Origin: Octopus vulgaris
Taxonomy: Eukaryota
DNA length: 64,000 nucleotides
Assembly: GCA_951406725.2 (NCBI GenBank)
Contig: OX597814.1
Coordinates: 148,180,001 to 148,244,000 of the forward strand
Direction of reading: 5' to 3'
This document shows positions 9,749 to 11,897 of the stretch, piece after piece. Numbering within the stretch: position 1 is the first letter of the stretch; each line of letters starts with the position of its first letter. The position numbers and the translations under genes were made by a program. A model generated the notes under the pieces. It was not told where the DNA came from. It did no database searches and saw nothing but the letters and a program-made list of their open reading frames with translations.

Positions 9749-10144
9749 GAGTGGCTGTGTGGTAAGTAGCTTGTTTACCAACCACATGGTCCCGGGTTCA
9801 GTCCCACTGCGTGGCACCTTGGGCAAGTGTCTTCTACTATAGCCTTGGGCCGATCAAAGCCTTGTGAGTGGATTTGGTAGACGGAAACTGAAAGAAGCCC
9901 GTCGTATGTATGTATATATACATATATATGCGTGTGTGTATTTGTGTGTCTGTGTTTGTCCCCTAGCATCGTTTGACAACCTGGTGTGTTTATGTGTCCG
10001 TTACTTAGCGGTTCGGCAAAAGAGAACGATAGAATAAGTACTAGGCTTACAAAAGAATAAGTCCCGGGGTCGAGTTGCGCAATTAAAGGCCGTGCTCCAG
10101 CATGGCCGCAGTCAGATGACTGAAACAAGTAAAAGAGTAAAGAG
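9749..10144 (+). mobile_element. tRNA-derived SINE, family A (abundant octopus-type SINE with internal microsatellite)
   Basis: A-box-like TGGCTGTGTGG, B-box-like GGTTCAGTCCC, CORE-like GGCACCTTGGGCAAGT, internal TA/TG tract, (GTAAAAGA)n tail; about 9 copies in the window. Confidence 0.85.
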
Positions 10145-10177
<33 letters not shown>

Positions 10178-10399
10178 TCAATATAGGGTGGCAAAAAAAA
10201 ATTTTGTAGAATTCTTTTGCCACCAGCGGCCTAGTGGGAAAAAATTAAATAGTCATAAACCATTTTTAAGTTCAACATCACAATCAAGGAACGGCCATAA
10301 TAGGCCATTCACCCACTAGAAATAACAGCCAAAAGCTTTAACCGCAAAATAACATTAATTCCGTAAACCAGGAGAAAATTGAAAAACATTTACCCTGTA

Positions 10400-10506
10400 A
10401 TTTCTTAGACGATGCACCGTTTCATCTACCGTTTAATGGTAAACTAACCTGATTAAATTAAATCAAGCCAATCCACCATAGGCCCTTAGACTCATCAGTA
10501 AGAAAT
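10400..10506 (-). ncRNA. Type I hammerhead ribozyme, copy 1
   Basis: Minus strand: stem I ATTTCTTA, core CTGATGA, stem II GTCTA..TAGAT, GAAA, stem III CGGTGCATCG, TC, stem I' TAAGAAAT. GUC triplet; predicted cut between 10408 and 10407. Confidence 0.88.
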
Positions 10507-10890
10507 AGCCAAGTCGGAACAGATATTTTTCACGAGGCATTCCTCTTGCTACATCGGCAATATCTGACCTAAAATTTTCAAATCGTCGCACTCGCGCCAA
10601 ATTTATCGGCAGCAAATAAATATAAGCCACCGATTCCATTACGGAACTAACCAGAAAATTCATAATTAATCAATATAGGGTGGCAAAAAAAATTTTGTAG
10701 AATTCTTTTGCCACCAGCGGCCTAGTGGGAAAAAATTAAATAGTCATAAACCATTTTTAAGTTCAACATCACAATCAAGGAACGGCCATAATAGGCCATT
10801 CACCCACTAGAAATAACAGCCAAAAGCTTTAACCGCAAAATAACATTAATTCCGTAAACCAGGAGAAAATTGAAAAACATTTACCCTGTA

Positions 10891-10997
10891 ATTTCTTAGA
10901 CGATGCACCGTTTCATCTACCGTTTAATGGTAAACTAACCTGATTAAATTAAATCAAGCCAATCCACCATAGGCCCTTAGACTCATCAGTAAGAAAT
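10891..10997 (-). ncRNA. Type I hammerhead ribozyme, copy 2
   Basis: Identical to copy 1 at +491; predicted cut between 10899 and 10898. The third copy (11382-11413) retains only the 3' half. Confidence 0.88.
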
Positions 10998-11409
10998 AGC
11001 CAAGTCGGAACAGATATTTTTCACGAGGCATTCCTCTTGCTACCTCGGCAATATCTGACCTAAAATTTTCAAATCGTCGCACTCGCGCCAAATTTATCGG
11101 CAGCAAATAAATATAAGCCACCGATTCCATTACGGAACTAACCAGAAAATTCATAATTAATCAATATAGGGTGGCAAAAAAAATTTTGTAGAATTCTTTT
11201 GCCACCAGCGGCCTAGTGGGAAAAAATTAAATAGTCATAAACCATTTTTAAGTTCAACATCACAATCAAGGAACGGCCATAATAGGCCATTCACCCACTA
11301 GAAATAACAGCCAAAAGCTTTAACCGCAAAATAACATTAATTCCGTAAACCAGGAGAAAATTGAAAAACATTTACCCTGTAATTTCTTAGACGATGCACC
11401 GTTTCATCT

Positions 11410-11460
<51 letters not shown>

Positions 11461-11515
11461 CACACATATATAAATATAATATATATACACACATATATAT
11501 ACATACACACACATA

Positions 11516-11897
11516 TCATCATCATCATCATCATCGTTTAGCGTCCGTTTTCCATCCTAGCATGAGTTGGACGGTTCAACTGGGGTCTGTGAAGCCAGAA
11601 GGCTTTATCAGGCCCAGTCAAATCTGGCAGTGTTTCTACGGCTGGATGCCCTTCCTAACGCCAACCACTCCGAGAGTGTAGTGGGTGCTTTTTACATGCC
11701 ACCCGCACAGGTGCCAGACAGAGCTGGCAAACGGCCACGAACAGCTGGTGCTTTTTATGTGCCACCGGCACGAGGGCCAGGCGAGGCTGGCAACGGACAC
11801 GAATCGGGGCGGTGCTGGCAACGGTCGCGAAACGGAAGGTTCTCTTACATGCCACCGGCACTGGTAACACATCTGCAATTTCCATTGATCGATTTCC
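11516..11897 (-). mobile_element. Non-autonomous retroposon with RTE-like 3' end and (GAT)n tail
   Basis: Minus strand has GGTTGGCGTTAGGAAGGGCATCCAGCCGTA, ends GGAAAACGGACGCTAAACGATGATGATG; three internal GC-rich sub-repeats. Confidence 0.65.

What the first reader, a model, noticed from the sequence alone, without database searches (positions are those of the whole stretch)
10170..11413. Young 491-bp tandem with canonical hammerhead ribozymes: candidate cephalopod retrozyme / circular RNA element
Seen: 2.5 almost identical head-to-tail units inside (TA)n. Each full unit has on the minus strand an 8-bp stem I, CUGAUGA, stem II, GAAA, stem III and a GUC cleavage triplet. The unit has further inverted repeats (GGTGGCAAAA..TTTTGCCACC, CTAGTGGG..CCCACTAG) and no credible ORF. 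Known: metazoan non-LTR retrozymes and Penelope pLTRs are tandem, type I HHR-bearing units, and retrozymes yield monomeric circRNA. Inferred: cleavage at 10899/10898 and 10408/10407 releases a 491-nt monomer, large for such units, which may circularise and be copied by a Penelope RT.
Basis: partly seen in the sequence, partly recalled or inferred. Interest (0 to 1): 0.92.

Follow-up and report, generated by a model that had tools for sequence, protein, structure and literature searches.

The report
Ribozyme-bearing Penelope-type mobile tandem repeat
This is one copy of an abundant, protein-free jumping RNA element that carries a self-cutting ribozyme and is most likely copied by Penelope-type retrotransposons; the class is known, but its genomic copies show where copying starts and where the RNA was cut, so the unsolved Penelope mechanism can be tested.

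Summary
There are 2.5 copies of a 491-bp unit (99% matches) inside (TA)n, each full unit with a type I hammerhead on the minus strand, cut sites 10899/10898 and 10408/10407. The ribozyme is not fully canonical: stem II is a 68-nt hairpin and Rfam scores it below threshold. The unit belongs to a young family of about 2,700 or more units at an estimated 800-1,000 loci. Insertions carry the Penelope (PLE) signature: (TA)n targets, variable 5' ends, head-to-head inversions and two fixed 3' ends about 106 nt apart. Inverted insertions use one end per arm (28 mixed outward pairs, 0 like pairs). Subfamilies keep the hammerhead through compensatory changes. Arms stop at the predicted cut site more often than at control sites (23 versus 8, 10, 10-13), and at three loci both arms stop exactly there, which points to cleavage in vivo. 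Variants private to a locus are fixed across all its units, as repeated copying of one monomer predicts. Verdict: a non-LTR retrozyme / non-autonomous PLE (about 0.9). A circular template is likely but not shown (about 0.55). Expression and the partner PLE were not established.

The parts
10170..11413 (-). Whole insertion: 2.5 head-to-tail units, single-armed, fixed 3' end (site B) at about 10170, truncated 5' end at 11413
10408..10898 (-). Predicted 491-nt monomer between two hammerhead cuts
10891..10997 (-). Type I hammerhead, copy 1: core CUGAUGA 10989-10983, 68-nt stem II 10982-10915, GAAA 10914-10911, stem III with palindromic loop, cut 10899/10898
10400..10506 (-). Type I hammerhead, copy 2, cut 10408/10407
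11382..11413 (-). 3' half of a third hammerhead (cut 11390/11389); its 5' half was lost by 5' truncation
10170..10224 (-). Site B: hairpin 10187-10224 followed by a single-stranded stretch that ends in AT and joins (TA)n; inferred RT start used at this locus
10277..10310 (-). Site A: hairpin 10289-10310 followed by a stretch ending in AT at 10277; second inferred RT start, used at other loci (also at 10768 and 11259 here)
10171..10276 (-). About 106-nt 'tail' between sites A and B (boundaries uncertain by 1-2 nt through AT microhomology)
10145..10172 (.). (TA)n target tract, left flank
11414..11505 (.). (TA)n target tract, right flank

Best explanation
A non-autonomous Penelope-like element of the non-LTR retrozyme kind. 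(1) An array is transcribed on the hammerhead strand (inferred; promoter unknown). (2) Hammerheads cut after GUC or GUA, probably as dimers paired through the palindromic loop 3 (site supported by genomic junctions; dimer inferred). (3) Monomers are mostly rejoined into circles (inferred). (4) A PLE RT/GIY-YIG protein, most likely of the Hydra clade, nicks both strands of a (TA)n tract and primes one cDNA at site A and one at site B of the same RNA (sites and pairing seen in DNA; enzyme inferred). (5) Each RT runs through one to several turns and stops, and the two cDNAs join head to head. If only one arm survives, the result is a plain tandem as in this window. Confidence about 0.9 for PLE-mobilised retrozyme, about 0.8 for cleavage in vivo at this site, about 0.55 for the whole including a circular template.
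For: Two fixed 3' ends joined to (TA)n, with variable 5' ends, in 40 loci. By my reading, 28 of 40 are two-armed; 26 of these have one A and one B end, 2 have one odd end, none has like ends. Second tally on contig 1 and the first 75 Mb of contig 2 (81 B ends, 78 A ends): 28 outward A/B pairs, 0 outward A/A or B/B, 1 same-strand A/A. The same rule holds in autonomous PLEs: 15 of 15 two-armed loci of family PLE-A and 12 of 12 of PLE-B. Hammerhead in 21 units of several subfamilies: 11 core positions invariant, N7 takes all four bases, H17 is C or A, a stem II pair is A-U in 13 and G-C in 8, loop 3 is UGCA 14, UAUA 6, UACA 1. The stem I pair at the cut changes from U-A to C-G in 4 of 5 loci fetched from a 238-match class, and one of them has two further paired stem II changes. 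Junctions in a 3-nt window at the cut: 23 of 25 matches, against 8 of 8, 10 of 14 and 10-13 of 25 at three control sites (P 0.001-0.004). Both arms end exactly at the cut at L186, L187 and L059. 14 locus-private variants are fixed in all covering units in 11 of 40 loci, 5 of them across both arms; units differ by 1.4 substitutions within loci and 4.3 between loci. 165 cut-site crossings show no indel at the junction. Hydra-type PLEs of this genome have hammerheads with stem II of 55, 60 or 85 nt.
Against: No circle, transcript or cleavage was observed directly. No partner was found: no significant DNA match to 20 Hydra-type upstream regions (best E 0.21), to PLE-B (E 0.24) or to the Hydra-1_Obim-like family (E 0.81); PLE-A's pLTR looks unrelated by eye. 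Core invariance alone is not significant (P 0.12), and the units are related, so each compensatory change is one event. Some pairs break: one long-hairpin pair is A-A in 15 of 21 units, and L184 has a mismatch at the cut. The junction classes were assigned by eye; on raw counts the excess at the cut falls to P 0.04. 14 variants are shared by only some units of a locus, and the 18-unit array L033/L034 is a mosaic, so DNA-level exchange occurs and could also homogenise arrays. The 40 loci are the best hits and are biased towards long arrays of one subfamily. In vitro, anole Poseidon used uncleaved RNA as its main template (PMC11167929). The hammerhead fold lies 1.5-6.8 kcal/mol above the predicted minimum of the circle.
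Confidence: 0.55

Rival explanations
1. Same PLE machinery, but the template is a linear, mostly uncut multimer read through from a source array. Cleavage only trims it, and arrays are homogenised or lengthened later by unequal exchange in DNA.
For: Uncleaved RNA is the main substrate of Poseidon in vitro (PMC11167929). L186 and L187 are copies of a linear RNA with its 5' end at the cut. The mosaic array L033/L034 and variants shared by adjacent units show DNA exchange.
Against: Private variants are fixed across both inverted arms (5 cases). Only 9 of 83 singleton variants recur in a second locus, with no shared ordered mosaic seen. Arms copied from a cut end give at most 238 nt and are dead ends, so selection on the ribozyme is harder to explain.
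Confidence: 0.27
2. Linear cut monomers are the template and the RT jumps end to end, on the same or another monomer, to build tandems without any circle.
For: L196 joins the cut end to a position 23 nt short of the monomer's 3' end, which looks like a jump. Jumps on one molecule would also fix private variants.
Against: 165 crossings of the cut in the 40 loci show no insertion or deletion within about 5 nt, only 3 substitutions. Imprecise junctions would be expected from jumping (general knowledge of non-LTR RTs).
Confidence: 0.14
3. A DNA-level repeat (satellite or Helitron-type passenger) in which the hammerhead is incidental or a relic.
For: The long array L033/L034 behaves like a satellite after insertion. 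The Rfam score is below threshold.
Against: Two fixed 3' ends paired one per arm, inversions and (TA)n targets as in PLEs; compensatory ribozyme changes; arms stopping at an RNA cut site.
Confidence: 0.04

Closest known systems
Metazoan non-LTR retrozymes (coral, Mytilus, axolotl: PMC7229834; vertebrates: 10.64898/2026.07.22.740005)
   Same: Non-coding tandem units, one type I hammerhead per unit, palindromic loop 3, G+C under 45%, co-occurring with PLEs.
   Different: 68-nt stem II. Circles are shown for those, not here. The parts of those papers I read do not describe fixed start sites, inversions or (TA)n targeting. No pLTR homologue was found for this unit, unlike 24 of 57 Xenopus families that matched known elements.
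Penelope-like element pLTR insertions (Poseidon of Anolis, PMC11167929; Adineta, PMC3846280)
   Same: Two internal RT start sites whose interval is the 'tail'; AT-rich target; head-to-head inverted 5'-truncated copy; tail on one arm only.
   Different: No ORF; tail about 106 nt rather than 30-40; up to about 18 units; stops at the hammerhead cut are seen in DNA, whereas no RNA-seq read ends at the cut were found in Anolis.
Hydra-clade PLEs (PMC8557442)
   Same: (TA)n targeting and a type I hammerhead. Families of this genome with Hydra motifs have long stem II (55-85 nt) and, in PLE-B, a long tail (about 170 nt).
   Different: The Hydra hammerheads listed in File S2 of that paper have short stem II with loops of 3-10 nt. 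This unit has no detectable sequence match to the families sampled.
Non-autonomous Chlamys elements such as MRC1 (10.1101/2021.04.23.441226)
   Same: Multi-copy head-to-tail non-autonomous PLE derivatives.
   Different: Those generally share 3' sequence with autonomous families, and most Chlamys lack canonical hammerheads.

Membership tests
Type I hammerhead ribozyme | Core CUGANGA...GAAA...UH with three stems, open at stem I | tested here: met
   11 core positions invariant in 21 of 21 units
Type I hammerhead ribozyme | Reaches the Rfam RF00163 gathering score | tested here: not met
   22 bits against 34, with a long insertion in stem II
Type I hammerhead ribozyme | Stems kept by compensatory change | tested here: met
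Type I hammerhead ribozyme | Self-cleavage | not testable with these tools
   indirect support only: arms stop at the site
Non-LTR retrozyme | At least two tandem units, each with a complete type I hammerhead | tested here: met
Non-LTR retrozyme | No protein-coding capacity | tested here: met
   longest frame in the unit 68 aa; indels vary freely among subfamilies
Non-LTR retrozyme | Dispersed multi-copy family | tested here: met
Non-LTR retrozyme | Expressed as monomeric linear and circular RNA | not testable with these tools
   contigs cannot show ends, strand or circles
Non-autonomous Penelope-like element | Partial tandem with 5' truncation and inverted 5'-truncated copy | tested here: met
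   28 of 40 loci two-armed
Non-autonomous Penelope-like element | Two 3' ends with a tail on one arm | tested here: met
   tail about 106 nt, longer than the published 30-40
Non-autonomous Penelope-like element | Insertion into AT-rich or (TA)n DNA | tested here: met
Non-autonomous Penelope-like element | Sequence shared with the pLTR of an autonomous partner | tested here: inconclusive
   no match in the families sampled; sampling limited to the best 150 candidates
Autonomous PLE | RT plus GIY-YIG ORF | tested here: not met
   PLE ORFs near three loci are separate insertions
Plant LTR retrozyme | Type III hammerhead in two LTRs around a unique central region | tested here: not met
   type I topology and plain tandem units; PBS, PPT and 4-bp TSD not examined

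The most novel reading that the evidence does not exclude
The family is a genomic record of the full PLE/retrozyme cycle. A hammerhead-cut, religated 491-nt circle on the sense strand is copied by a dimeric PLE enzyme whose two RTs start on opposite target strands at two fixed sites of one RNA and roll round it. This would explain pLTR tandems, head-to-head inversions and the tail in one mechanism, and it would define a long-stem-II hammerhead subclass shared with Hydra-type PLEs.
Probability: 0.4. Interest if true: 0.78.

Novelty: new variant of a known kind. Interest (0 to 1): 0.56.

Why it matters
How Penelope-like elements make their tandem and inverted insertions, and what their hammerhead is for, are open questions. 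PMC4209133 and PMC7229834 propose a circular template without showing it for transposition. PMC3846280 proposes self-priming on an antisense template. PMC11167929 found cleavage dispensable in vitro. This small, young, abundant family gives countable genomic evidence on these points: the hammerhead strand is the template, the cut is made at the predicted base, and the two start sites are used one per arm. It also offers a 491-nt substrate for in vitro tests. Standard short-stem descriptors and Rfam thresholds miss this hammerhead shape, so such elements may be under-counted in animal genomes. The class itself is known, which caps the score.

Tried and rejected
Expression: no RNA holder listed. 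Four runs only guessed to be RNA were laid as contigs; they cover 24-26 of 30 bins and show subfamily variants, but cannot show transcription, ends or circles. Partner search: PLE-A, PLE-B, 20 upstream regions of Hydra-type ORFs and 6 of 24 Hydra-1_Obim-like loci gave no significant match; pieces of the unit at L093 and L118 lie beside PLE-A copies and look like separate insertions. A pattern for a UAUA-loop variant with GUC found nothing because that subfamily has GUA. One search was meant to count 5' ends at the cut but returned 1,686 mostly GUA-subfamily units. One search was a mis-designed control and is used only as a unit count (2,698). One search had a mis-specified stem III and is uninformative. 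The automatic end classification over-called internal B sites and is not used for counts. My first hammerhead scan missed short-stem-I motifs. The L060 '74% older copy' is not an older subfamily but a copy with many small deletions. No tRNA gene in the window; the bacterial promoter scan is not meaningful here. Rfam miRNA and other weak hits come from (TA)n and hairpins. Earlier scan notes: three look-ups returned nothing. Literature searches found no description of this family: retrozyme/hammerhead/octopus, hammerhead ribozyme/Penelope/cephalopod (one paper), hammerhead/long stem II/retrotransposon (none), octopus/Penelope/non-autonomous/tandem repeat, and mechanism terms. Repbase and Dfam could not be searched, and the supplements of the two bioRxiv preprints were not seen; either may hold this family.

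Full report
Numbering. U1-U491 is the unit read on the window's minus strand, U1 = window 10660 (or 11151). The predicted cut lies after U253.

1. Observation. Tandem Repeats Finder gives 10170-11413, period 491, 2.5 copies, 99% matches, between two (TA)n tracts. The minus strand shows an 8-bp stem I, CUGAUGA, a 68-nt stem II region, GAAA, a weak stem III with loop UGCA, and GUC. Rfam's type I model matches both full copies end to end at 22 bits against a threshold of 34; nothing in the window reaches a threshold. The monomer folds with z -5.0. Stem II is a 5-bp base plus a 19-bp hairpin. The longest frame within the unit is 68 aa.

2. Family size. A DNA search of the own genome (2.8 Gb, 227 contigs) scored 40 of 926 candidates and returned 227 matches; the 150 listed are 96-100% identical and lie on more than 20 contigs. 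Exact patterns give 426 units with the window's GUC hammerhead, control 0; 1,686 matches with a non-C base at the cut, nearly all GUA in the 100 listed; 238 with a changed base after the cut; and 2,698 matches to one conserved 19-mer. Ends joined to (TA)n number 836 for site B and 366 on the forward strand for site A, the reverse strand being double-counted. I estimate 800-1,000 loci. Thirty units fetched from 20 loci are 483-499 nt and 89-98% identical to the window's.

3. Insertion anatomy. I mapped the window locus and 39 others. 3' ends cluster at U384 (site A) and U490-491 (site B); both end in AT and run into (TA)n, while 5' ends vary. By my reading, 28 of 40 loci have two arms in head-to-head inversion, counting two tiny arms (L044, L052) and one degenerate arm (L060). 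Of these, 26 have one A and one B end within about 10 nt, 2 have one odd end (L036, L053), and none has like ends. The 12 single-armed loci end in B (8, including the window) or A (4). A second tally on contig 1 and the first 75 Mb of contig 2, overlapping the first sample by one pair, found 28 outward A/B pairs, no outward like pairs and one same-strand A/A pair among 81 B and 78 A ends. In the consensus fold both sites lie in single-stranded RNA just after a hairpin, each preceded by TTGATT, and a long-range helix encloses both. Target-site duplications cannot be read in (TA)n.

4. This is the Penelope signature. Published PLEs form partial tandems with an inverted 5'-truncated copy and a 30-40-bp tail at one end (PMC8557442 and its preprint, passages; PMC3846280, passages). 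For anole Poseidon the tail is the interval between two internal RT start sites, both target strands are cut and extended, and the protein is predicted to be a dimer (PMC11167929, parts 1-2 of 4). Two autonomous PLE families of this genome follow the same rule. PLE-A has open frames up to 1,312 aa and a 58-nt tail, and 15 of 15 two-armed loci are mixed. PLE-B has a 5.6-kb period and a tail of about 170 nt, and 12 of 12 are mixed, though those loci were found with the long end. PLE-B has the motifs that define the Hydra clade: RW[RK], DKT, CxCX5C, C-terminal GIY-YIG (definitions from section 11 of PMC8557442). Hammerheads with stem II of 55, 60 or 85 nt were found in 11 of 20 upstream regions of related ORFs and in PLE-B. 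The Hydra hammerheads in File S2 of that paper have loops of 3-10 nt. A Hydra-type partner is therefore my best guess, but no sequence match was found.

5. The ribozyme is under selection. In 21 units, 11 core positions are invariant (not significant alone, P 0.12), N7 is T 7, A 6, C 5, G 3, and H17 is A 16, C 5. The pair 10.1-11.1 is A-U 15, G-U 5, U-U 1. One stem II pair is A-U 13, G-C 8. Loop 3 is UGCA 14, UAUA 6, UACA 1, and the two palindromes give much more stable self-duplexes than UACA (-17.5 and -13.6 against -7.1 kcal/mol). In 4 of 5 loci fetched from the 238-match class the stem I pair at the cut is C-G instead of U-A, and one of them also has two paired stem II changes; the fifth has a mismatch. 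A weak palindromic stem III implies dimer cleavage in known metazoan hammerheads (PMC4209133, passages). These are a handful of independent events, and one pair of the long hairpin is a mismatch in 15 of 21 units.

6. Record of cleavage. I counted places where an arm leaves the unit within a 3-nt window. At the cut there are 25 matches, 23 of them true junctions by eye and 13 with a foreign base directly at U254. Controls: 8 of 8 at U197, 10 of 14 at U55, 10-13 of 25 at U335. The excess gives P 0.001-0.004, or 0.04 on raw counts; for the exact position, 13 against 0, 7 and 2 gives P 0.0007. Eleven of these loci were fetched. At L186 and L187 both arms stop at U254 with no earlier crossing, one ending at A and one at B. 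L188 and L193 stop there after one and two crossings. L196 joins the cut end to about U230. L059 has both arms stopping at U254 after one and three crossings. Near-symmetric inversions occur elsewhere too (3 of 28 within 5 nt, L059 included); even if 5-20% of loci were symmetric, three at this one base has P 0.00006-0.003. I infer that the hammerhead strand is the template and that the RNA is cut at the predicted base. That speaks against the antisense self-priming proposed in PMC3846280, at least for these insertions. Such stops are rare, about 1% of units, so the template is usually continuous at the cut.

7. Circle, multimer or jump. In the 40 loci, 63 of 65 arms cross at least one cut (a biased sample), and 165 crossings show no indel. 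Fourteen variants private to one locus are fixed in all its covering units in 11 loci, five across both arms; mean distance is 1.4 within loci, 1.3 between arms and 4.3 between loci. This is what repeated copying of one monomer gives. Against it: 14 variants are shared by only some units of a locus, the 18-unit array is a mosaic that suggests unequal exchange, and an unsampled homogeneous source array could give the same picture. An arm copied from a cut monomer is at most 238 nt and cannot rebuild a unit, so a selected ribozyme makes most sense if monomers are rejoined (inference). Circles from such repeats are shown in coral, mussel and axolotl, with RtcB as the likely ligase (PMC7229834, passages, section 14 and part 4 of 6). 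I put the circle at 0.55, linear multimer at 0.27, template jumping at 0.14, a DNA-only route at 0.04.

8. Known versus new. Non-LTR retrozymes are known, and their PLE origin is argued in a 2026 preprint on vertebrates (10.64898/2026.07.22.740005, parts 1-3 of 5). The circular-template idea is published as a hypothesis. A review was read in passages and added nothing specific (PMC6765202). My seven searches found no account of this family, of long-stem-II hammerheads in retroelements, or of genomic stops at the cut; repeat databases and preprint supplements were not seen. It works like a PLE pLTR and meets the testable criteria of a non-LTR retrozyme. It differs by its 68-nt stem II and its tail of about 106 nt. 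Verdict: new variant of a known kind, interest 0.56.

Noticed in passing
G000:C22:44548781-44552716 (L103/L104) and many other loci: Young, abundant autonomous PLE family (PLE-A), clade not determined: open frames up to 1,312 aa with an Asn-rich insert, period about 4.6 kb, 58-nt tail, one end type per arm in 15 of 15 inverted loci, non-canonical hammerhead-like motif.
   Followed up: partly
L122 (G000:C6:133252500-133262000) and related loci: Young Hydra-type PLE family (PLE-B), period 5,604 bp, hammerhead with 85-nt stem II, tail about 170 nt. Related families at 44-50% protein identity have stem II of 55 or 60 nt.
   Followed up: partly
L060:2275-2569: One arm is a copy of U1-384 with over a dozen short deletions, many filled with AT or TA. 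Either RT slippage with AT addition or an assembly consensus of filled and empty alleles.
   Followed up: no
L033/L034 (G000:C10:17474891-17483867): An array of about 18 units with variants in an irregular mosaic, suggesting satellite-like growth after insertion.
   Followed up: partly
L048, L051, L059; G000:C11:47005580: Inversions in which both arms stop at nearly the same template position, as if both RTs met one break in one RNA.
   Followed up: partly
L042, L056: Single-armed arrays of almost exactly 2 and 4 units whose 5' end also falls at site B.
   Followed up: no
window 10000-10150: A very high-copy dispersed repeat whose (TA)n tail is the target of this insertion; contig depth there is hundreds of times that of the unit.
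   Followed up: no
window 11684-11803: 63-bp tandem inside another common dispersed repeat; a similar repeat lies in L053.
   Followed up: no
L053:3-1330 and L046:200-2260: 3' halves of two further PLE families with C-terminal GIY-YIG and deviant hammerhead-like motifs, next to but separate from the arrays.
   Followed up: no
L197-L202: 24 copies of a hammerhead like that of published Hydra-1_Obim; in the 6 fetched, ends lie about 35 or 95 nt after the cut and the copies look older.
   Followed up: partly
L118:7094-7332, L093:1-1044: Units of the family beside PLE-A copies; L118 is a small inverted A/B insertion in PLE-A's (TA)n tail.
   Followed up: no
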